Positions 5,415-33,091 of a DNA stretch of 48,486 nt are shown piece by piece. The position numbers and the translations under genes were made by a program. Under the pieces are notes generated by a model. It was not told the origin of the DNA, did no database searches, and worked only from the letters and a program-made list of their open reading frames with translations. Origin of the DNA: Patescibacteria group bacterium (GTDB taxonomy: Bacteria; Patescibacteriota; Microgenomatia; Levybacterales; UBA12049). The stretch is taken from the NCBI GenBank assembly GCA_023473785.1, contig JAMCYD010000001.1, positions 1-48,486 on the forward strand. Direction: 5' to 3'. How positions within the stretch are numbered: position 1 is the stretch's first letter; the number at the start of each line of letters is the position of its first letter.

Positions 5415-5984
5415 ATGAACAACACATTTTATTTCCTTAGACACGGAAAAACCAAGATTGATAAAAATGCACCAGTTAGCAGATGGGTACTTTCGGAAGT
5501 GGGGGAAAAGCAGGCAAGTCAACTGACAAGAGAGGGTGTTTTTGATGACATTGACCTTATCTTTTCTTCTACAGAGGATAAGGCTTATAAAACTGTTCTA
5601 CCTATTGCCGAGAAATTGGGCAAAAAAGTAATCAAGCTGGAAGCGATATGTGAGATCAACAGGGACAATAGTGGTTTTTTAGAAATGGAAGAGTATGAAA
5701 AAACAATAGGGCAATGTCTCAAAAACCCAGATAAATCATTCAATAGTTGGGAGACCGCAAATCATGCTCTTGAAAGATTTTCTAAGCAAATCTCTGAGCT
5801 AGATAAAGAATATTCAAATAAAAAAATTTTAGTGGTTGGACATGGCTTTACTATCAATATGTATTTTGCAAAACTTCTGGGTGTCCTTGATAAAGTTTAC
5901 GAAAGACTGAGCAGAAACGATTTTGCCGATTGGGGAATAGTAAAGAATCAAGCAGTCGTTAAGGATATAGCAAAACAGGCTTAG
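5415..5984 (+). CDS. Histidine phosphatase family protein (phosphoglycerate mutase-like)
   Basis: An RHG motif lies at the N-terminus (FYFLRHGKT) and a later VVGHG histidine is present. I prefer the ATG at 5415 over the TTG at 5391 because TGATATTAT (5399..5407) lies 7 nt upstream of 5415. Confidence 0.75.
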   Translation: MNNTFYFLRHGKTKIDKNAPVSRWVLSEVGEKQASQLTREGVFDDIDLIFSSTEDKAYKTVLPIAEKLGKKVIKLEAICEINRDNSGFLEMEEYEKTIGQCLKNPDKSFNSWETANHALERFSKQISELDKEYSNKKILVVGHGFTINMYFAKLLGVLDKVYERLSRNDFADWGIVKNQAVVKDIAKQA

Positions 5985-17023: not shown

Positions 17024-17752
17024 TCAGCCTAATTTTCTCATCCACTCGTGCGCATACTGCTGGGCCTTTTCAGTTTTTATTACTTCCAATATTTTCTTTG
17101 CAATAAATTCTGCCGAGTCAGCCGGGGGAAGATTACTATTCTCTCCTTGAGCAGGTTTAACAAAGTCATTTCCTTCCAGCATATTTTTTTCAAAATCAGT
17201 AAGAGTTATATATGGATAGACAACATTTACGATGATACTGTCCTTTTTTAATTCTTCGCGGGCGGTAAGAGATAAGGCATTGATCATCCTTTTCGTTGAG
17301 GAATAAGCACTCATATTCGGTAGGTACATAAGTGATGTTCCGGAGCTGATATTTACAATCATCCCGCCGCCTTGTTTTCTCATAATCGGTATTACGGCTT
17401 GCATGGCAACAAGAGGGCCAACAACATTTAACTCAAAAAGCTGCCGAAATTTATCAGTCTGGGTTTTTTCAACCGGAGCATCATACCCTCTCCCAGCATT
17501 ATTAATCAGAATGTCAATTCTGCCATAATGGTTTTTTACTTTATCCATCATTTCTTTAACATTGTTTTCTTTTGAAACATCTGTTGCGACTGGAAATGAC
17601 AGAGGGAGTTCTTTTGAAATTTTTTCAATTTTTTCTTTTGAGCGGGCCACAAGCGCAACTTTCGCTCCTTTTTGAGTCAGAAGTTTTGCCGTTGCAAGTC
17701 CGATGCCCGAAGATGCACCAGTAACAATTACAACTTTGTCTTTAATACTCAT
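17024..17752 (-). CDS. SDR family oxidoreductase
   Basis: TGASSGIG dinucleotide motif, NNAG, and the catalytic S...YSSTK are present. Confidence 0.85.
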   Translation of the reverse strand: MSIKDKVVIVTGASSGIGLATAKLLTQKGAKVALVARSKEKIEKISKELPLSFPVATDVSKENNVKEMMDKVKNHYGRIDILINNAGRGYDAPVEKTQTDKFRQLFELNVVGPLVAMQAVIPIMRKQGGGMIVNISSGTSLMYLPNMSAYSSTKRMINALSLTAREELKKDSIIVNVVYPYITLTDFEKNMLEGNDFVKPAQGENSNLPPADSAEFIAKKILEVIKTEKAQQYAHEWMRKLG

Positions 17753-17791
17753 GCGGCAATTATATCAGAAGGTGCTTTGGTTTCTCATCTT

Positions 17792-18490
17792 CTATTTTAG
17801 TTCCCAGGTTTTTATGATGTTTCTGTCAAGAAAAACTGCATTGCATGTGAGCAGTGTCACCGAGTCAACTGTGTAGGGTTCAAAAGAAATTGATTTTGAT
17901 AATTCCTCGACCCGCTTTAAAAACTCGCGAGTAGGTGCGTTATTGAATCTTGCCAGAGTAGTGTTACTGAAAAAACGCTGTGAGCTTATATATACCTTGT
18001 CGTCCGGCACGCCTGCTTTTTTAAGTTCTCTGTCTAAGTCAAGAATAATATTGTCCAGTTCTGGATCTGTGGTGCCGACAAGAGCAAGGTTATTTGGAAA
18101 TAGCAGTAAGCGATAAAAATAAACATTAAATCTTTTATGACGGGGGATGACTGACTCAAAAACTTGTGTTGCTTTACTTATATCCTCATTTACGAAGTGA
18201 GGCGGGTCATTGATAACTCGAACATTTTTTATAGACATATGCAGTGAATCGGGTGGATAGAAGAAGTAATCAGGCGTTACCTTCCTTAGCGGTTCAATCA
18301 AAAAACTCTCTATTTTATTGATTAACTGCTCATGGGGTATGTGTACGCTTGTTAAGCAGATGCGAGTGTCTTTTCCAAAATCATTAACAGGAGAAACCGC
18401 ACTAAGCCTGAATGAACGGCTAATAACTTGCTGCTCAATTTGGTTAATTAACCCTATCTGCTCTTTTTGATAGGGTGAGGAAATATCCAT
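17792..18490 (-). CDS. Hypothetical protein, possibly a degenerate 2H-phosphoesterase (LigT-like)
   Basis: The first motif is SLHMSIKNV (H-x-S-x). The second position reads SNTTLARF, so H is replaced by N. TGGTATAAT lies 6 nt upstream of the ATG on the minus strand. The family assignment is weak. Confidence 0.5.
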   Translation of the reverse strand: MDISSPYQKEQIGLINQIEQQVISRSFRLSAVSPVNDFGKDTRICLTSVHIPHEQLINKIESFLIEPLRKVTPDYFFYPPDSLHMSIKNVRVINDPPHFVNEDISKATQVFESVIPRHKRFNVYFYRLLLFPNNLALVGTTDPELDNIILDLDRELKKAGVPDDKVYISSQRFFSNTTLARFNNAPTREFLKRVEELSKSISFEPYTVDSVTLLTCNAVFLDRNIIKTWELK

Positions 18491-18550
18491 AATGAAATTA
18501 TACCAGAACCTGAATGTTTTAAATAAGTTCTAGCTTTTCCTTCCCCTCCA

Positions 18551-18559
18551 TGATAGAAT
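18551..18559 (+). promoter_or_regulatory. Extended -10 TGATAGAAT upstream of the pseudo-tRNA / GIY-YIG / tRNA-Asn unit
   Basis: This is the only promoter-like box between the divergent gene at 18490 and the tRNA. It lies 17 nt before the pseudo-tRNA start. Confidence 0.4.
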
Positions 18560-18572
18560 AAGTTTCACAATT

Positions 18573-18589
18573 ATATTCCTCTGTAGCTC
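18573..18589 (+). repeat. 17-nt direct repeat ATATTCCTCTGTAGCTC (copy 1)
   Basis: Identical to 18863..18879, which is 4 leader nt plus tRNA-Asn positions 1-13. Confidence 0.9.
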
Positions 18590-18624
18590 TCCGCCAGCTG
18601 GCGGAGGTAGAGCAGAGCCTGTTT
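18577..18624 (+). pseudogene. Degenerate duplicate of the 5' half of tRNA-Asn (acceptor 5' strand through anticodon), with the D-loop replaced by a 16-nt palindrome
   Basis: TCCTCTGTAGCTC[TCCGCCAGCTGGCGGA]GGTAGAGCA-GAGCCTGTT aligns with TCCTCTGTAGCTC[AGT]GGTAGAGCACTCGCCTGTT of the intact gene. No 3' half follows it. Confidence 0.6.
18590..18605. repeat. Perfect GC-rich 16-nt palindrome TCCGCCAGCTGGCGGA
   Basis: Self-complementary. A near-identical copy (17 of 18 nt including the flanking GG) lies at 31554..31571 inside pcrA. Confidence 0.85.
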
Positions 18625-18866
18625 ATGTATTACATTTATGCTGTGTATAACAAAAACAGTAATAAAATATATATTGGTCAAACAGAAAATTTAGAAGAGC
18701 GATTAAGGCTTCATAATGAAAGGGCATTTAAGCATAGTTATACATCTAGATTTATTGGAGAATGGAGCTTAATATATAAAGAAGAAGCTGATAATAGAAT
18801 TACAGCATTAAAAAGGGAGAAGCAGTTAAAGAGTTTTCGAGGAAGAGAATTTATAAAACAACATAT
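18625..18866 (+). mobile_element. Putative GIY-YIG cassette inserted at the anticodon loop position of tRNA-Asn (boundaries approximate)
   Basis: A nuclease ORF is bracketed by a duplicated tRNA 5' half. See the finding for 18551..18941. Mobility itself is inferred. Confidence 0.35.
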
Positions 18867-18876
18867 TCCTCTGTAG
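18625..18876 (+). CDS. Small GIY-YIG nuclease family protein (83 aa, UPF0213/COG2827-like)
   Basis: YYIYAVYNKNSNKIYIGQTENLEERLRLHN carries the GIY...YIG motifs. A downstream R and E (ALKREKQLK) are present. The last 10 nt, including the TAG stop, overlap the tRNA-Asn 5' end. Confidence 0.8.
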   Translation: MYYIYAVYNKNSNKIYIGQTENLEERLRLHNERAFKHSYTSRFIGEWSLIYKEEADNRITALKREKQLKSFRGREFIKQHIPL

Positions 18877-18879
18877 CTC
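18863..18879 (+). repeat. 17-nt direct repeat ATATTCCTCTGTAGCTC (copy 2)
   Basis: Identical to 18573..18589. Confidence 0.9.
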
Positions 18880-18941
18880 AGTGGTAGAGCACTCGCCTGT
18901 TAAGCGATTGGTCGGAGGTTCGAATCCTCCCGGAGGAGCCA
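18867..18941 (+). tRNA. tRNA-Asn (anticodon GTT), with encoded CCA
   Basis: Hand-folded cloverleaf. Acceptor stem is TCCTCTG/CGGAGGA (one G-U). D arm is GCTC-AGTGGTA-GAGC. The anticodon loop is CTGTTAA. T arm is GGAGG-TTCGAAT-CCTCC. The discriminator is G, followed by CCA. 75 nt. Confidence 0.9.
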
Positions 18942-18981
18942 GATATTTTAGCCTCGATTTATGCTATAATTCCTCCTTATT

Positions 18982-19560
18982 ATGACATCGCCTGAGCAAC
19001 TTCTAACTTTTTATCAAAGAGGATTAATGCCAGAAGCTGGATTTAGATATACAGATGTTTATGCAGATGCAGCTAGATTATTAAGCATTGCTTATTCAGA
19101 GCAGCATCACGAGCCTCCGCCTAGGGTTCATCCTCAAAGTTTCGATGAGATTTGGTTGATGCGTGACAAACTTGCTAAATTCAATGTCTCATTAGGGAGA
19201 TCTCTAGAAGATCAAGAAGCTTATTATGCTTTTATAAAAACAATGGATAAACCAGATCAGTTAATCGTTGATAAGTATTTTGATGGAAAAATATCGCCGG
19301 ATGACAGAAGATTTGCAATTGTTCCGAATGAATATCCTGCGTCAATGCCTTCTGATGCACAGCATTTTTTAATGTGGTACATTGACAATGGTTTACCAAA
19401 TAGTTGGGTAGTTGATAAAATTGCTGAGTATATTATAGAACAAAAATTAACAACTGCCGATTTTGCTGCTTATCGTAAACCATCGAACGCTGGTTCTTTT
19501 TTACCAGGTTTTTCTCGTTCAATAAGTTTGCCACATGTGCATCTTATATTAAGAAGATAA
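18982..19560 (+). CDS. Hypothetical protein (192 aa) with a C-terminal H-x-H-x-hydrophobic motif (LPHVHLIL), possibly a HIT-like fold
   Basis: ORF behind TGCTATAAT (18962..18970). Motifs IVPNEYP...HFLMWY and PHVHLIL are present. The family is not securely recognised. Confidence 0.6.
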   Translation: MTSPEQLLTFYQRGLMPEAGFRYTDVYADAARLLSIAYSEQHHEPPPRVHPQSFDEIWLMRDKLAKFNVSLGRSLEDQEAYYAFIKTMDKPDQLIVDKYFDGKISPDDRRFAIVPNEYPASMPSDAQHFLMWYIDNGLPNSWVVDKIAEYIIEQKLTTADFAAYRKPSNAGSFLPGFSRSISLPHVHLILRR

Positions 19561-30286: not shown

Positions 30287-31229
30287 TTCTTAGAAAGAAC
30301 CAGCGGATTTTGTCGGTGAGCCTGTAGAGATTATAAAGAAAGGGGTTAATTACAAAATCGTAGCTTCCTACGAATTCAACGAGGTCCCCGCCGTAGCCCT
30401 GTTTGAATTTGTGGAAACCATACCATGGATCTTTGGGATCAGGATTTGGACCAAGTGCCCCCCACATATCAAATTTTTTAAGCCCAAGTTTTTTGCCAAA
30501 TTTTATTGCCTCCCACATCATAAGATTTGATGCCATGGTTTCCCGATGTTTTTCGCTCGACGCGCCATATGGGTAATAAAGGGTGTCTTTATAAACAAAC
30601 AAAATCCAAGCAGCAAGAGTTTCATTTTTATATTTCGCCAGCAATAAATGCGCAATGAGACTATCAGTCTTTAGTTTTTGGTCGTTAGTCTTTGGTCTTA
30701 AAGTTTCCCACATCAGTTTATGATATTTCTGGGTATGAGCATGGAAATTTTGTCTTTTGGTTGTTTCCTCTGTCAGTTTTAGGTACTCCTTAAAAGCCTT
30801 ATCGGAATTGTCTTCAATTATTTTTACCCCATGTTTTTCTGAAACCCTTATGTTGTATCTGGTTTTTTGATGCATCGCTTTTAATAATTCGTCTTCTGAT
30901 TTTGTCAGATCTAACACAAAAGTATATTTGGTAAAAAGAGGATGAGCTGCTGGTACAAGGCCTAAATTCGTGATTCTTGGTTTGTTATTCGTCGCTAATA
31001 TATTTGGTTCAAGCTGAATAAAAATACAATTGTTTTCTTTTCCTATTTTTCTAAGTTTATTAATAAATTCTTTATTCGGTAAATCTCCCTTGGGAATATA
31101 TCCGACGCTCCAGGGAAGATGGGGAATTTGATGAATTGTCATTTGGAAGTTGCCTTCCCGAATTACTTTTACTGCGGTTTTTTTTCTAAATTCTCCCCAT
31201 TCAAGGGATTGTAAAGGATGGTTGCTCAT
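30279..31229 (-). CDS. FemAB family peptidoglycan peptide-bridge aminoacyltransferase
   Basis: The N-terminus LQSLEWGEFRK, the YPYGASS pattern and the FKQGYGG pattern are typical of FemX/MurM-type enzymes. A GGTGGAG Shine-Dalgarno-like sequence lies upstream. Confidence 0.8.
   Translation of the reverse strand: MSNHPLQSLEWGEFRKKTAVKVIREGNFQMTIHQIPHLPWSVGYIPKGDLPNKEFINKLRKIGKENNCIFIQLEPNILATNNKPRITNLGLVPAAHPLFTKYTFVLDLTKSEDELLKAMHQKTRYNIRVSEKHGVKIIEDNSDKAFKEYLKLTEETTKRQNFHAHTQKYHKLMWETLRPKTNDQKLKTDSLIAHLLLAKYKNETLAAWILFVYKDTLYYPYGASSEKHRETMASNLMMWEAIKFGKKLGLKKFDMWGALGPNPDPKDPWYGFHKFKQGYGGDLVEFVGSYDFVINPFLYNLYRLTDKIRWFFLRTR
30666..30700. repeat. Degenerate heptamer tandem repeat x5 inside the FemAB gene. 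The plus strand reads AGTCTTT AGTTTTT GGTCGTT AGTCTTT GGTCTTA; the sense unit is AAAGACY.
   Basis: Read directly from the sequence. It encodes RPKTNDQKLKTD. Confidence 0.8.
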
Positions 31230-33091
31230 AAATACTCCACCTCACCTTTTTCCAAAATGTGCAAATTATTGGATAATATATTTTCCGGGAGCTCCAAAAT
31301 AAATCTTGAAATGACATTTGATGTCCGCTGCCCAAAGAACAATCTTTTTCGCGAGTAAGTTAAGAAAAGTTTTTCCCGTGCTCTGGTCATGCCAACATAA
31401 CAGAGTCTTCTTTCTTCCTCAAGTTGACTTTTGTCCATCAAGCTTCTTGAATGCGGGAAAAGACCTTCTTCCATGCCGACCATAAAGACTACAGGAAATT
31501 CTAGCCCCTTGGCTGCATGAAGGGTCATTAGGTTTACCGCGTCTTTTTTCTTGCCTCCGCCAGCCGGCGGATTGGGATGATCGGGAAGGTATTCTTGTTC
31601 AACTAGAGCAACATTTTCCAGAAAATGGGTGAGATTTGGAAATTCAATAGCAACAGAGCGCAGCTCTTTTATATTCTCAAGCCGCATTCTGTCCTCTTCG
31701 TCTTTTTCATCATATAAAGATAAATAATCAGTGGCAGAGGTTACTCTGTCAAGAATTTCAAGTGTCATAAGGTTGTCTACTTTTCCTGACTCAAGCAGTT
31801 TTTCCTGAAATTCTTGAAATTTTCCAAGCCGTCCCTTTCCCAGCTTTTCTATTCTCTTAAAAGAGATCATGTCTTTTGGATTTGCGAGAATTTTAAGATA
31901 TGCAAGTATGTCCTTGATTTCACGTCTTTCGTAAAATCTCGTTCCTCCAATAAGCGTATAGGGAATTCCTAGATGCAGGAAGACTTCCTCAATCGATCTT
32001 GACTGGGCATTAGTTCTATAAAGAACTGCAAAATCTGAATATTTAAGCTTAGGATTTTGGTATTTAATATCCGTTATCCCATTTACGATAAATTCTGCTT
32101 CGTTATGTTCATTTGAAGCCTCATAAAGCATTACGTCATCTCCTTTTCCATTTTCTGTCCAAAGTGTTAATACCGGATGTGAGGTGTTTTTTGAAATAAC
32201 AGAAGATGCAGCATCTAAAATCTTTTGAGTAGATCTATAATTTTGAGATAGTGCAAATGTTTTTGTATTCTTAAAATCGTCCTTAAATCTTATTAAATTT
32301 TGAAAATCAGCTCCTCTCCAGCTATAGATACTTTGAGAAAAGTCACCCACAACGCAGATGTTCTGTTTTTTGATGCTTAAATCTCCTGCAAGCATTTTTG
32401 TAAGTATGTATTGAGCGCGATTTGTATCTTGATATTCATCGACTAAGATATACTGAAATTTATCTTGATATTTTTTAAGAATTTGATGATTTGATTCAAA
32501 AAGATAAATCGCTTTAAGTATAAGATCATCAAAATCCAGAGCGTTATTTTCCTTAAGAATTTTTTGGTAAAGAAAATAAATCTTAGCAACAACTTCCTGG
32601 AAATGGCCTCTTGCATACTTTGGATATTCGCTTTCGCCTATCAATTCATTTTTTGCCCCAGAAATAGTATTTAGAATTGATGAAGGTTTAAAATCCCGAG
32701 TCGAGATATCAAGTAGCTTCATCGCTTCTTTGATCGCATCGATCTGATCGCCTTCGTCATAAATAACGAAATTTTGCGAGATGCCAATATGCTTGCCTTC
32801 AATCCTAAGAATTCTTACACATAGAGAGTGAAACGTAGAGACAAAAGGCTGTAGAGAAGGATTGTTTATTTTAATTCTTTCCTTCATTTCATTGGCTGCT
32901 TTGTTGGTAAAGGTAACCATAAGAATACTATCTGGATCAACTCCCAGCGCATTTATTAGATAAAGGACTTTATAAGTAAGAACCCGCGTTTTCCCTGATC
33001 CTGCGCCTGCCAAAATAATCATCGGCCCATTTGTCTGAAGAACGGCTTTTTTCTGCTCTTCGTTTAAGTCCTTGAGAAAATCTTTATCCAT
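31226..33091 (-). CDS. pcrA: ATP-dependent DNA helicase PcrA/UvrD family
   Basis: Motif I is AGAGSGKT, motif II is VDEYQDTN, and NYRS is present. TLHAAKGLEFPVVF and YVGMTRA are also present. Confidence 0.9.
   Translation of the reverse strand: MDKDFLKDLNEEQKKAVLQTNGPMIILAGAGSGKTRVLTYKVLYLINALGVDPDSILMVTFTNKAANEMKERIKINNPSLQPFVSTFHSLCVRILRIEGKHIGISQNFVIYDEGDQIDAIKEAMKLLDISTRDFKPSSILNTISGAKNELIGESEYPKYARGHFQEVVAKIYFLYQKILKENNALDFDDLILKAIYLFESNHQILKKYQDKFQYILVDEYQDTNRAQYILTKMLAGDLSIKKQNICVVGDFSQSIYSWRGADFQNLIRFKDDFKNTKTFALSQNYRSTQKILDAASSVISKNTSHPVLTLWTENGKGDDVMLYEASNEHNEAEFIVNGITDIKYQNPKLKYSDFAVLYRTNAQSRSIEEVFLHLGIPYTLIGGTRFYERREIKDILAYLKILANPKDMISFKRIEKLGKGRLGKFQEFQEKLLESGKVDNLMTLEILDRVTSATDYLSLYDEKDEEDRMRLENIKELRSVAIEFPNLTHFLENVALVEQEYLPDHPNPPAGGGKKKDAVNLMTLHAAKGLEFPVVFMVGMEEGLFPHSRSLMDKSQLEEERRLCYVGMTRAREKLFLTYSRKRLFFGQRTSNVISRFILELPENILSNNLHILEKGEVEYL
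31556..31571. repeat. GC-rich near-palindrome TCCGCCAGCCGGCGGA inside pcrA (encodes PPAGGG)
   Basis: With its flanking CC, it matches the palindrome at 18590..18607 in 17 of 18 positions. Confidence 0.8.

What the first reader, a model, noticed from the sequence alone, without database searches (positions are those of the whole stretch)
18551..18941. tRNA-Asn preceded by a degenerate copy of its own 5' half, with a GIY-YIG nuclease ORF wedged exactly between pseudo-anticodon and intact tRNA
Seen in sequence:
- An intact tRNA-Asn(GTT) lies at 18867..18941.
- About 290 nt upstream, 18573..18589 is an exact 17-nt copy (ATATTCCTCTGTAGCTC) of 18863..18879. That is 4 leader nt plus tRNA positions 1-13.
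- The upstream copy continues as GGTAGAGCA-GAGCCTGTT, against GGTAGAGCACTCGCCTGTT in the real tRNA. The 5' half up to and including the anticodon triplet is therefore duplicated.
- In the copy, the D-loop AGT is replaced by a perfect GC-rich palindrome, TCCGCCAGCTGGCGGA.
- The 83-aa GIY-YIG ORF starts one base after the pseudo-anticodon (CCTGTT-T-ATG).
- The last 10 nt of the ORF, including its TAG stop, are tRNA positions 1-10.
- The only promoter-like box (TGATAGAAT, 18551) lies upstream of the whole unit.

Inference:
- A GIY-YIG cassette inserted into, or recombined at, the anticodon loop of tRNA-Asn. A functional gene was regenerated downstream and the displaced 5' half is decaying.
- The tRNA would be co-transcribed with the nuclease mRNA. 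RNase P cleavage at the tRNA 5' end would then remove the stop codon from the nuclease message. Nuclease expression and tRNA maturation from one transcript would be mutually exclusive.

No integrase or intron-like structure is visible, so the mechanism is open.
Basis: partly seen in the sequence, partly recalled or inferred. Interest (0 to 1): 0.72.

Follow-up and report, generated by a model that had tools for sequence, protein, structure and literature searches.

The report
Hairpin-nuclease cassette lodged in tRNA-Asn gene
A roughly 290-base cassette, made of a tiny nuclease gene and the DNA hairpin that always accompanies it, sits inside a tRNA-Asn gene so that a working tRNA is rebuilt downstream, and it recurs in many ultra-small bacteria while close relatives have the same tRNA gene without it.

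Summary
In detail: an intact tRNA-Asn, an exact 17-nt repeat 290 nt upstream, a 16-nt palindrome in the copied D loop, and an 83-aa GIY-YIG ORF whose last 10 nt are tRNA positions 1-10.

- **Recurrent module.** Across about 80 related loci, a single-domain GIY-YIG ORF lies beside one intact tRNA-Asn or tRNA-Lys. At least one partial copy of that tRNA carries the palindrome TCCGNN-AGCT-NNCGGA.
- **Not a decaying relic.** Against the nearest relative, synonymous sites are saturated (dS about 1.5, dN/dS 0.07). The upstream half and palindrome are still preserved.
- **Presence/absence is proven.** The closest relative (RpoD 93% identical) has an identical tRNA-Asn behind the same promoter and leader, without the cassette. 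97 of 106 similar tRNA-Asn loci are empty.
- **Closest known system.** This is the Ssn family (Chenal et al. 2025): single-domain GIY-YIG nucleases that cut single-stranded DNA next to a cognate hairpin repeat. The ORF is 35% identical to a genuine Ssn protein. A second nuclease subfamily has its own hairpin in the same architecture.

I read it as an Ssn-like nuclease-hairpin cassette resident in tRNA genes. It is a new variant of a known kind, and its mechanism is inferred.

The parts
18551..18559 (+). Extended -10-like box TGATAGAAT, the native tRNA-Asn promoter captured by the cassette
   Evidence: The orthologous box and leader (TGGTAAAATAAGTTTCATAA) lie directly upstream of the cassette-free, identical tRNA-Asn in L192. 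A -10-like box sits upstream of the pseudo-half in 23 of 37 loci. The generic promoter scan is not significant on its own.
18560..18576 (+). Native tRNA leader. Its last 4 nt (ATAT) belong to the 17-nt direct repeat.
   Evidence: AAGTTTCACAA aligns with the L192 leader AAGTTTCATAA.
18577..18589 (+). Partial tRNA copy, positions 1-13 (acceptor 5' strand, U8-A9, D-stem 5' strand)
   Evidence: 13/13 identical to the real tRNA. In 34 of 39 loci this strand tracks the locus's own tRNA.
18590..18605 (.). 16-nt palindrome ('pal') TCCGCCAGCTGGCGGA: a 6-bp stem with a 4-nt loop, standing in place of D-loop nucleotides 14-16 (AGT). It is the proposed cognate hairpin of the nuclease.
   Evidence: Present next to nearly every CPR ORF of the family. 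Pairing is kept through double changes. One pal-like copy occurs in 678 kb of cassette-free loci, against 6 copies beside the 8 cassettes. As single-stranded DNA the hairpin folds at -8 kcal/mol, z -2.9.
18606..18624 (+). Partial tRNA copy, positions 17-36 (D-loop 3' part, D-stem, degenerate anticodon stem, CTGTT), plus 1 nt before the ATG. It includes GGAGG, which straddles the end of the hairpin.
   Evidence: The local alignment to the tRNA covers positions 17-35. The nearest relative L069 keeps GGTAGAGCAGAAGCCTGTTTTATG although dS is about 1.5.
18625..18876 (+). 83-aa single-domain GIY-YIG nuclease gene, Ssn-like. The true start is the ATG at 18625, not the GTG used in the public 77-aa annotation.
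   Evidence: Pfam GIY-YIG at E 1.2e-15. The AlphaFold2 model has pLDDT 96.7 and one GIY-YIG domain. The best fold matches are UPF0213, Slx1 and the I-TevI catalytic domain. Identity to an SRM-flanked Ssn protein is 35%, E 5e-11; hhalign gives 98.1%. dN/dS is 0.07. M1 is nearly invariant in the family.
18863..18879 (+). Second copy of the 17-nt direct repeat (leader ATAT plus tRNA 1-13). It doubles as the last codons ..H-I-P-L-stop of the ORF.
   Evidence: A 10-nt ORF/tRNA overlap occurs in 25 of 37 tRNA-Asn loci.
18867..18941 (+). Intact tRNA-Asn(GTT) with encoded CCA
   Evidence: ARAGORN and Rfam tRNA at 70.7 bits. It is 75/75 identical to the tRNA of the empty allele L192.

Best explanation
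The locus is a small selfish cassette of about 290 bp lodged in the tRNA-Asn gene. It consists of a minimal, single-domain GIY-YIG nuclease gene related to the Ssn family and a 16-nt hairpin that I take to be the nuclease's cognate recognition site on single-stranded DNA.

**Architecture (shown)**
- The order is: native tRNA promoter and leader, tRNA positions 1-13, hairpin, tRNA positions 17-36, ORF, then an intact tRNA whose first 10 nt finish the ORF.
- Relative to the empty allele of close relatives, the filled allele is a duplication of the leader end plus the tRNA 5' half, with the ORF between the copies and the hairpin in the upstream copy.
- The tRNA stays functional. It has no promoter-like box of its own between the ORF and its 5' end, so it would depend on transcription through the cassette (inferred).

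**Mechanism (inferred)**
- By analogy with Ssn, the nuclease binds the hairpin when the DNA is single-stranded and cuts next to it.
- The breaks are repaired by recombination between the cassette's tRNA fragment and a tRNA gene.
- A crossover on the side of the hairpin that leaves the whole tRNA intact is the only viable outcome. This gives the layout 'hairpin-copy, ORF, tRNA', as in the window. Its mirror image, 'tRNA, ORF, hairpin-copy', is seen in Ignavibacteria and some tRNA-Lys loci.
- Recombination between the short direct repeats gives precise loss (empty alleles) or tandem amplification (arrays).
- Junctions and hairpin insertions fall mostly in the single-stranded loops of the tRNA-gene cloverleaf. 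They also fall in the loop of another hairpin.

**Expression (inferred)**
- The ORF rides on the tRNA promoter.
- Its stop codon lies inside the tRNA, so RNase P processing would leave a message without a stop codon and keep nuclease levels low.
For: - **Family-wide architecture.**
  - Close homologues sit at tRNA-Asn and about 50%-identical ones at tRNA-Lys. Every locus that is not cut by a contig end has such a tRNA beside the ORF.
  - The palindrome lies in a partial copy of that same tRNA in nearly all loci.
- **Selection.**
  - Window against L069 gives dN/dS 0.07 and dS 1.5.
  - Synteny purA-dnaG-rpoD is shared and the GIY protein is 81% identical, against 58-88% for the housekeeping proteins.
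  - The non-coding half and hairpin are conserved at this divergence.
- **Presence/absence.**
  - 97 loci are empty and 9 filled among 106 tRNA-Asn loci with the same body sequence.
  - L192 (RpoD 92.8% identical) is empty, with an identical tRNA and an orthologous promoter and leader. L123 is the empty counterpart of L069.
- **Nuclease and hairpin as a pair.**
  - One pal-like copy occurs in 678 kb without the ORF, against 6 copies beside the 8 cassettes.
  - Hairpin variants differ by lineage: CCGCC in CPR, CCGTT in Ignavibacteria, CCGTC in Akkermansia. They change on both arms.
  - A second subfamily (34-39% identical) has a different hairpin, CCTGCC..GGCAGG, in the same architecture.
- **Relation to Ssn.**
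  - Proteins P0171 and P0153 are flanked on both sides by the canonical NTS CGTCATTCCCGCGAAGGCGGGAATCC.
  - The window ORF matches P0171 at 35% identity, E 5e-11. The profile comparison gives 98.1%, E 1e-13.
  - E. coli YhbQ is more distant: 27%, E 6e-8, and 94.3% by profile.
  - Ssn biochemistry and its 'IS-like' NTS-ssnA-NTS layout are described in PMC11893778.
- **Dynamics.**
  - Nested hairpins occur in L019, L030 and L069.
  - One pseudo-tRNA carries two hairpins in L068 and in L011.
  - L021 has the tandem order hairpin-ORF-hairpin-ORF-tRNA.
  - L040 and L058 have arrays with a period of 82-84 nt.
  - A cultured Melioribacter has a 331-bp unit duplicated at 99% identity.
  - The pseudo-half acceptor differs from that of the adjacent tRNA in L004, L013, L028, L037, L054 and L124. 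L179 has a chimeric ORF.
- **One domain only.** The AlphaFold2 model (pLDDT 96.7) leaves no room for a separate DNA-binding domain.
Against: - No biochemistry exists for this clade. Recognition of the hairpin by the protein, and the choice of single-stranded DNA, are inferred from a 35%-identical family.
- The canonical Ssn recognition motif is absent.
- The hairpin is not amplified genome-wide as it is in Neisseria: 2 copies in 48 kb.
- GIY-YIG enzymes hydrolyse DNA and are not known to join strands. Insertion must therefore rely on host repair, and 13-17 nt of homology is short for RecA.
- The window and L069 share position and divergence with their hosts. Long vertical inheritance with repeated precise loss explains that pair as well as mobility does.
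- The identity of the pseudo-half to the real acceptor strand could reflect selection on an RNA structure instead of DNA recombination. The whole-precursor fold pairs the pseudo 5' strand with the tRNA 3' strand.
- No copy was found on plasmids. No full-length relative was found in viral contigs. No transfer vehicle is therefore known.
Confidence: 0.55

Rival explanations
1. Classical free-standing homing endonuclease. The GIY-YIG protein cuts double-stranded, cassette-free tRNA-Asn genes. Double-strand-break repair copies the cassette in. The palindrome merely disrupts the displaced target copy (immunity), or shortens the direct repeat so that the cassette is lost less often.
For: - The ORF has a GIY-YIG catalytic domain.
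- There is clear empty/filled polymorphism at a highly conserved target gene.
- Group I introns occupy the anticodon loop of the same tRNA in 7 related loci.
- Where the 5' half is best preserved, the 3' limit of the duplication (CTGT|) coincides with that intron site. This recalls 'collaborative homing' of an intron and a neighbouring endonuclease.
- T4 SegB is a GIY-YIG homing enzyme in a tRNA gene cluster (PMC2330249, abstract).
Against: - The protein is a bare 83-aa catalytic domain with no linker or DNA-binding domain. Characterised GIY-YIG homing enzymes need one.
- The intact, intron-less tRNA next to the ORF would be a self-target in most loci.
- An immunity disruption need not be one constant sequence. 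It need not covary with nuclease subfamily either.
- It would not be expected to insert into its own loop.
Confidence: 0.15
2. RNA-level device. The upstream half with its hairpin is a functional part of the precursor RNA. Its acceptor 5' strand competes with the real one for the tRNA 3' strand, giving two exclusive cloverleaves. One is a normal tRNA that RNase P cuts off, removing the stop codon. The other is an 'expanded tRNA' that encloses and protects the mRNA. This toggle would couple nuclease synthesis to tRNA maturation.
For: - The pseudo acceptor strand follows the real tRNA through covarying changes. One example is position 4 (T in the window, C in L069), together with its partner at position 69.
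- The D-stem variants on both sides of the hairpin also follow the tRNA.
- The MFE and centroid folds of the 379-nt precursor pair the pseudo 5' strand with the tRNA 3' strand, z -2.7.
- The 10-nt ORF/tRNA overlap is conserved in 25 of 37 loci.
Against: - The module also exists in mirror form. There the hairpin sits in a 3' partial copy after the ORF, in Ignavibacteria, L041 and L058.
- In the tRNA-Lys type the hairpin removes the anticodon-stem 5' strand.
- The module also occurs as arrays without ORFs.
- None of these three arrangements fits one RNA fold.
- The identity of pseudo and real strands extends into leader nucleotides that do not pair. That points to DNA copying.
- Ssn does not bind RNA (PMC11893778).
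- About 10 of 37 loci have a TATAAT box 5-9 nt before the ATG. That would start the mRNA downstream of the pseudo-half.
Confidence: 0.1
3. Domesticated host gene. The small nuclease serves the cell (for example in DNA damage processing, like YhbQ). It merely became fixed in the tRNA-Asn operon through an old duplication, with no ongoing mobility.
For: - Purifying selection is strong.
- The position is syntenic, and divergence is host-like between the window and L069.
- The protein is homologous to E. coli YhbQ, annotated as a DNA damage response nuclease.
Against: - The distribution is patchy: about 9 of 106 comparable loci, with empty alleles in the closest relatives.
- The same architecture has been built independently by two nuclease subfamilies, on two tRNA species and in both orientations.
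- There are recent tandem copies and chimeras.
- Pseudogenised copies occur in L034, L060, L146 and L068.
Confidence: 0.1

Closest known systems
Ssn family of site-specific single-stranded DNA endonucleases with NTS/SRM hairpin repeats (cd10448; N. meningitidis SsnA; Chenal et al., Nat Commun 2025, PMC11893778)
   Same: - Both are single-domain GIY-YIG proteins of about 80-95 aa.
- Sequence relatedness is detectable: 35% identity at E 5e-11 to an SRM-flanked member, and hhalign 98%.
- The gene is accompanied by a short hairpin-forming inverted repeat, sometimes on both sides (L024, L037, L047, L049).
- Different nuclease lineages carry different hairpins.
- The layout has been called IS-like.
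   Different: - The hairpin is 16 nt, with no conserved flanks, and does not fit the SRM consensus.
- It is not amplified in the genome.
- It is always embedded in a partial copy of tRNA-Asn or tRNA-Lys next to an intact copy.
- Defined empty and filled alleles exist.
- The paper does not mention tRNA or Patescibacteria.
- Clade membership in cd10448 was not testable here.
Free-standing GIY-YIG homing endonuclease genes (phage T4 Seg proteins such as SegB in the tRNA cluster, PMC2330249). From my own knowledge: mobile GIY-YIG ORFs in fungal mitochondria that bring a replacement end of the host gene and leave the displaced end as a remnant.
   Same: - A GIY-YIG ORF sits beside or inside a conserved gene, with presence/absence polymorphism.
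- Part of the target is duplicated, so the gene stays functional.
   Different: - There is no DNA-binding domain.
- A conserved hairpin is part of the unit.
- The duplicated part is the 5' half of a tRNA.
- The remnant is conserved, not decaying.
Hairpin-directed single-strand DNA elements: IS200/IS605 (TnpA) and REP/RAYT (discussed in PMC11893778; own knowledge)
   Same: - A small protein is paired with a short DNA hairpin that marks the element.
- Hairpin copies can occur without the gene.
- A single-stranded DNA lifestyle is proposed.
   Different: - Those enzymes are HUH tyrosine transposases, which form covalent intermediates and join strands.
- A GIY-YIG hydrolase cannot do that as far as is known.
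- No HUH gene is present here.
Integrase-mediated genomic islands and prophages that integrate into tRNA genes (own knowledge)
   Same: - Insertion into a tRNA gene regenerates an intact tRNA.
- It leaves a partial tRNA copy as a direct repeat at the other end.
   Different: - There is no integrase, and the whole unit is about 290 bp.
- The duplicated part is usually the 5' half rather than the 3' end.
- The partial copy is interrupted by a hairpin.
UPF0213 / YhbQ small GIY-YIG proteins (E. coli b3155)
   Same: Both are stand-alone GIY-YIG domains of about 100 aa. The best structural match is a UPF0213 protein (1zg2).
   Different: The sequence relation is weaker (27%, E 6e-8). No hairpin or tRNA association is known to me for YhbQ.

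Membership tests
Ssn (hairpin-directed ssDNA GIY-YIG nucleases, cd10448) | Single-domain GIY-YIG protein shorter than about 150 aa | tested here: met
   83 aa. Pfam GIY-YIG covers residues 1-70. The AlphaFold2 model is one compact domain with pLDDT 96.7. Fold matches are to GIY-YIG domains only.
Ssn (hairpin-directed ssDNA GIY-YIG nucleases, cd10448) | Belongs to the cd10448 clade, that is, closer to SsnA-type proteins than to other GIY-YIG families | tested here: inconclusive
   - No CDD model or SsnA sequence was available.
- Against proteins shown here to be flanked by the canonical NTS: BLASTP 35%, E 5e-11; hhalign 98.1%, E 1e-13.
- Against E. coli YhbQ (UPF0213): 27%, E 6e-8; hhalign 94.3%.
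- The ORF is closer to Ssn than to UPF0213, but no phylogeny was made.
Ssn (hairpin-directed ssDNA GIY-YIG nucleases, cd10448) | Hairpin-forming inverted repeat next to the gene | tested here: met
   A 16-nt palindrome lies 20 nt upstream of the ATG in the window. It is present in nearly all CPR loci, and on both sides in some. It co-occurs with the ORF. At 16 nt it is shorter than the 20-50 nt quoted for SRM.
Ssn (hairpin-directed ssDNA GIY-YIG nucleases, cd10448) | Repeat matches the SRM consensus HGTCWYN(0-2)YYVSBRHN(0-5)WNVSBRGN(0-2)RNCYNB | tested here: not met
   There are no matches around the window cassette and 1 match in 195 kb of related loci (L025:273). The same regular expression finds 2-5 matches around the genuine Ssn genes.
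Ssn (hairpin-directed ssDNA GIY-YIG nucleases, cd10448) | Sequence-specific cleavage of single-stranded DNA next to the hairpin, with no activity on double-stranded DNA or RNA | not testable with these tools
   This needs purified protein and oligonucleotide substrates.
GIY-YIG homing endonucleases (I-TevI / Seg type) | N-terminal GIY-YIG domain joined by a linker to a C-terminal DNA-binding domain | tested here: not met
   The protein ends after the catalytic domain. NCBIfam group I intron endonuclease scores 26 bits against a cut-off of 56, over the N-terminal motif only.
GIY-YIG homing endonucleases (I-TevI / Seg type) | Presence/absence polymorphism at a conserved target gene | tested here: met
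   97 loci are empty and 9 filled. The orthologous empty alleles are L192 and L123.
Group I intron in a tRNA anticodon loop | Group I ribozyme core between two tRNA halves | tested here: not met
   There is no Intron_gpI hit in window 18300-19100, even at E up to 10. The downstream tRNA is complete. Group I introns are present in the tRNA-Asn of 7 related loci, separate from the cassette.
Integrase-type tRNA-targeting integrative element | Tyrosine or serine recombinase gene within the element | tested here: not met
   The only ORF between the two repeat copies is the 83-aa GIY-YIG gene. The flanking ORFs have no recombinase domain.
IS200/IS605 and REP-RAYT | HUH (Y1) transposase gene | tested here: not met
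   The ORF is GIY-YIG by sequence and by fold.

The most novel reading that the evidence does not exclude
The unit of about 290 bp may be one of the smallest autonomous mobile elements known. In this reading, a hairpin-guided minimal GIY-YIG nuclease attacks the single-stranded loops of tRNA-gene cloverleaf DNA and rebuilds the tRNA as it inserts.

Its 16-nt hairpin would also spread on its own into hairpin loops:
- the D loop;
- the T loop;
- the loop of another copy of itself;
- perhaps, in frame, protein-coding genes, where both strands read P-P-A-G-G.

This would be direct evidence that Ssn-type nuclease and hairpin pairs are mobile DNA, with defined empty and filled sites.
Probability: 0.25. 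Interest if true: 0.85.

Novelty: new variant of a known kind. Interest (0 to 1): 0.68.

Why it matters
- **Role of Ssn-type enzymes.** The 2025 Ssn paper left the biological role of these mini-nucleases outside Neisseria open. It only noted that their layout looks like an insertion sequence.
- **What this clade adds.** Here the nuclease and hairpin pair has a fixed address (tRNA-Asn or tRNA-Lys genes). It has orthologous empty and filled alleles, nested and tandem copies, and two subfamilies with distinct hairpins. Mobility and target choice therefore become directly testable.
- **tRNA capture.** The cassette takes over the promoter of what is probably the only tRNA-Asn gene of a very small genome, so imprecise loss would be lethal.
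- **Annotation.** It explains a common annotation error in these genomes. Gene callers start the ORF too early or too late, and some translate the palindrome.
- **Practical use.** New hairpin and nuclease pairs would widen the toolbox of enzymes that cut single-stranded DNA.

Tried and rejected
- **Rfam on the cassette.** No known RNA family covers the upstream half, and there is no group I intron.
- **Sequence search of solved structures and NCBIfam.** There were only weak generic GIY-YIG hits and no informative name.
- **PLSDB plasmids, tblastn.** No match.
- **IMG/VR viral contigs.** The 50 hits cover only the N-terminal 30-57 residues, which is the generic GIY-YIG motif. No full-length relative was found, so there is no evidence for a phage vehicle.
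- **Literature.** No paper links GIY-YIG genes to tRNA-Asn or to Patescibacteria tRNA genes. Only the Ssn paper is relevant, and its supplements are not held. I therefore could not use the SsnA sequence. I recovered genuine Ssn genes from a consensus I recalled and validated them by their flanking NTS repeats.
- **Generic promoter and terminator scan.** Not informative on its own.
- **Second palindrome in the window (31556..31571).** I considered that it is an insertion in the helicase gene. Alignment to PcrA and UvrD shows no extra length there, so this stays open.
- **Palindrome as the joined ends of an excised transposon.** Rejected, because the ORF never lies between the two half-palindromes.
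- **Target-site duplication from a staggered cut.** Considered unlikely, because the left limit of the duplication varies from -1 to about -21 among loci.
- **Chance repeat.** Rejected.
Full report
**1. The observation**

- ARAGORN finds one tRNA in the window, tRNA-Asn(GTT) at 18867..18941. Rfam scores it at 70.7 bits.
- The 17-nt string ATATTCCTCTGTAGCTC occurs exactly at 18573-18589 and 18863-18879.
- After the upstream copy comes the perfect 16-nt palindrome TCCGCCAGCTGGCGGA (18590..18605). Then comes GGTAGAGCAGAGCCTGTT, which aligns with tRNA positions 17-35.
- The ORF at 18625..18876 encodes 83 aa with a Pfam GIY-YIG match at E 1.2e-15. Its last 10 nt are tRNA positions 1-10.
- The public annotation starts this gene at an internal GTG (77 aa, P0001). 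The family alignment shows that the ATG at 18625 is the conserved start.

**2. It is a recurrent module, not a one-off**

The ORF has 731 close homologues, nearly all of 82-84 aa and mostly from Patescibacteria (CPR). A search of 1.84 billion cluster representatives finds 2289 clusters at E up to 1e-3 and 128 at E up to 1e-10.

I fetched 68 loci from reference genomes.
- Homologues above about 58% identity are followed by tRNA-Asn(GTT).
- Those near 50% identity are followed by tRNA-Lys.
- Ignavibacteria have tRNA-Asn upstream instead.
- In seven loci that seemed to lack a tRNA, the tRNA-Asn carries a group I intron in its anticodon loop.

Upstream of almost every CPR ORF lies the same palindrome, embedded in a partial copy of the neighbouring tRNA. 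Its position differs by group:
- between positions 13 and 17 of the D loop, replacing 3 nt, in about 27 tRNA-Asn loci;
- between positions 8 and 12 in L008 and L018;
- between positions 10 and 24 in L026, L035, L037 and L060;
- between positions 22/23 and 31/32 in all tRNA-Lys loci;
- in the T loop, between positions 57 and 61, of a 3' partial copy after the ORF in Ignavibacteria, as TCCGTTAGCTAACGGA;
- between positions 37 and 46 in an Akkermansia contig.

Some loci show further rearrangement:
- a hairpin nested in the loop of another hairpin (L019, L030, L069);
- two hairpins in one pseudo-tRNA (L068, L011);
- hairpin-bearing copies on both sides of the ORF and tRNA (L024, L037, L047, L049);
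- tandem units (L021, L006, L001);
- arrays with a period of 82-84 nt (L040, L058);
- a 331-bp unit duplicated at 99% identity in a cultured Melioribacter (L048).

**3. The upstream half is conserved, not decaying**

The nearest relative is L069.
- It shares the order purA-dnaG-rpoD, then two genes, then the cassette. The two genes are unrelated between the genomes.
- Protein identities are PurA 70%, DnaG 58%, RpoD 88% and the GIY-YIG protein 81%.
- For the ORF, dS is 1.5 (saturated) and dN/dS is 0.07.
- At this divergence neutral DNA should be unrecognisable. Yet the acceptor strand, the palindrome and the spacer GGTAGAGCAGA(A)GCCTGTTT(T)ATG are all kept.

Across 39 loci with 18 different acceptor sequences, the pseudo-half matches its own tRNA 7/7 in 34 loci. 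Mismatched locus pairs average 4.8/7.

The 18 distinct hairpin variants pair in 99% of cells, and three of the six pairs change on both sides. One caveat applies: the variants were picked partly by their complementarity.

**4. Presence/absence**

One metagenome scan with the tRNA-Asn body sequence gave 120 loci. Of the 106 with enough upstream sequence, 97 have no GIY-YIG ORF and 9 have one.
- L192 has an RpoD 92.8% identical to the window's. Its tRNA-Asn is identical (75/75) and lies directly behind TGGTAAAATAAGTTTCATAA.
- That sequence is the counterpart of the window's TGATAGAATAAGTTTCACAA, which precedes the pseudo-half. The pseudo-half therefore holds the native promoter and leader.
- Relative to the empty allele, the filled allele is a duplication of the leader end plus tRNA positions 1-36. 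The ORF lies between the copies.
- L123 is the empty counterpart of L069.
- L182 is an 'empty' site with a degenerate remnant.

Among the 120 metagenome loci, the palindrome travels with the ORF. Six of the eight ORF-bearing loci have it directly upstream. The 678 kb of ORF-less loci hold a single pal-like 16-mer.

**5. A second nuclease and hairpin pair**

L120, L124 and L146 carry a different GIY-YIG ORF of about 82 aa, 34-39% identical to the window's. The layout is the same: a pseudo 5' half, the ORF, then an intact tRNA-Asn.
- The hairpin is different, CCTGCC..GGCAGG, and is inserted after GGTA of the D loop.
- L011 has both hairpins in one pseudo-half.
- L179 is a chimera of the two ORF types.
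- In L124 the pseudo-half acceptor (TCCGCGG) differs from that of the adjacent tRNA (TCCTCTG). Similar discordance occurs in L004, L013, L028, L037 and L054.

Two nuclease lineages, each with its own hairpin, have built the same structure. I take this as the strongest argument that the hairpin is the nuclease's partner and that the architecture is the product of a mechanism.

**6. The closest known system**

Chenal et al. (PMC11893778) described Ssn.
- Ssn proteins are single-domain GIY-YIG proteins; N. meningitidis SsnA is 94 aa.
- They bind a hairpin repeat (NTS/SRM) in single-stranded DNA and cut just upstream of it.
- They show no activity on double-stranded DNA or RNA.
- Their genes are flanked by the repeats in an 'IS-like' layout.
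- The paper states that their role outside Neisseria is unknown. It does not mention tRNA.

I had no SsnA sequence. A consensus I recalled retrieved a large alphaproteobacterial family. Its members are flanked on both sides by the canonical NTS CGTCATTCCCGCGAAGGCGGGAATCC.
- The window ORF is 35% identical to one of them, E 5e-11.
- The profile comparison gives 98.1%, E 1e-13.
- E. coli YhbQ is more distant.
- The AlphaFold2 model (pLDDT 96.7) is a bare GIY-YIG domain.
- The SRM consensus is not met, and the hairpin is not amplified.

I therefore file the ORF as Ssn-like, with clade membership unresolved.

**7. How it probably works**

Shown:
- the architecture;
- its conservation;
- the empty alleles;
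- the pairing of nuclease lineage with hairpin type.

Inferred:
- The nuclease recognises the hairpin in single-stranded DNA and cuts beside it.
- Repair through the cassette's tRNA fragment and a tRNA gene inserts or re-inserts the unit.
- Only crossovers that leave a whole tRNA are viable. This explains both orientations.
- The short direct repeats allow precise loss and tandem gain.
- Junctions fall mostly in the D loop, anticodon loop, T loop and hairpin loop. This fits an enzyme that acts on single strands.
- The cassette uses the tRNA promoter.
- About 10 of 37 loci also have a TATAAT box 5-9 nt before the ATG.

- The 10-nt overlap is conserved in 25 of 37 tRNA-Asn loci.
- No terminator-like site separates the ORF from the tRNA.

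As a possible RNA-level layer, the predicted fold of the whole precursor pairs the pseudo 5' strand with the tRNA 3' strand. The mirror-image and tRNA-Lys arrangements do not fit a single RNA structure.

**8. Verdict**

It is a new variant of a known kind: an Ssn-type nuclease and hairpin module, here resident in tRNA genes, with partial target duplication and defined empty sites. The mechanism is inferred from a relative at 35% identity and needs biochemistry.

Noticed in passing
L001:1848-2062, L012:1761-1997, L017:2135-2379, L018:1063-1334, L019:1790-2065, L028:1788-2080, L034:1794-2042: Group I introns (Rfam RF00028, 59-88 bits) interrupt the anticodon loop of the tRNA-Asn next to the cassette in 7 related CPR loci. 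The insertion site (after CTGT) coincides with the 3' limit of the duplicated 5' half in the best-preserved cassettes. I know of no report of group I introns in tRNA-Asn.
   Followed up: partly
window 31556..31571 (inside the UvrD/PcrA-like ORF at 31226..33091, minus strand); also L097:5093-5108: Solitary near-copies of the palindrome (TCCGCCAGCCGGCGGA and TCCGCCTGCCGGCGGA) lie inside protein-coding genes, and both are read as P-P-A-G-G. Shuffles of the window predict 0.02 such matches. Alignment to PcrA and UvrD shows no extra length at that linker, so an in-frame insertion is not shown.
   Followed up: partly
window 17024..18490, compared with L069:4352-5754 and L192:1610-1671: The space between rpoD and the tRNA-Asn promoter is a variable islet. 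The window has an SDR gene and a 232-aa gene. L069 has two unrelated genes. L192 has nothing (60 nt).
   Followed up: partly
L048:1445-2092 (Melioribacter sp. OK-6-Me, a cultured isolate): The 331-bp unit (ORF, hairpin-bearing 3' tRNA fragment, trailer with terminator hairpin) is present twice in tandem at 99% identity. This is a recent duplication in a strain that could be used for experiments.
   Followed up: partly
L025:273-305: A canonical NTS/SRM-type hairpin (AGTCATTCCCCCGACTTAGTCGGGGGAATCCAG) occurs in a CPR locus that also carries the tRNA-type cassette. It was the only SRM match in 195 kb of related loci.
   Followed up: no
L097, about 15-45 nt downstream of the tRNA-Asn that starts at 5963 (coordinates in the orientation with the tRNA on the + strand): A fragment resembling the 3' end of a different tRNA-Asn allele (GAATCCTCGCGGGGGAGCTA) lies just after the intact, cassette-free tRNA. 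It looks like the leftover of another integration event.
   Followed up: no
window 18867..18941 compared with L041:1106-1178: CPR tRNA-Asn and tRNA-Lys are almost identical from position 8 to 65. This may explain why related cassettes sit at just these two tRNAs.
   Followed up: no
P0001, P0018, P0024, P0027, P0028, P0080, P0114 (public gene calls for homologues): Gene callers often mis-start the ORF. Some start at an internal GTG, which removes the first GIY strand. Others start upstream, so that the palindrome is translated as ..ALRQLAE.. or ..PPAGGG.. . Frame-shifted ends read the tRNA as ..SPVAQW/R.
   Followed up: yes
L054:1380-1880 (contig labelled Akkermansia muciniphila): A cassette with the hairpin TCCGTCAGCTGACGGA after the anticodon loop of the upstream copy. 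Its duplication includes the ORF 3' end, the leader and tRNA positions 1-37. The module therefore occurs outside CPR and Ignavibacteria, if the bin assignment is right.
   Followed up: no
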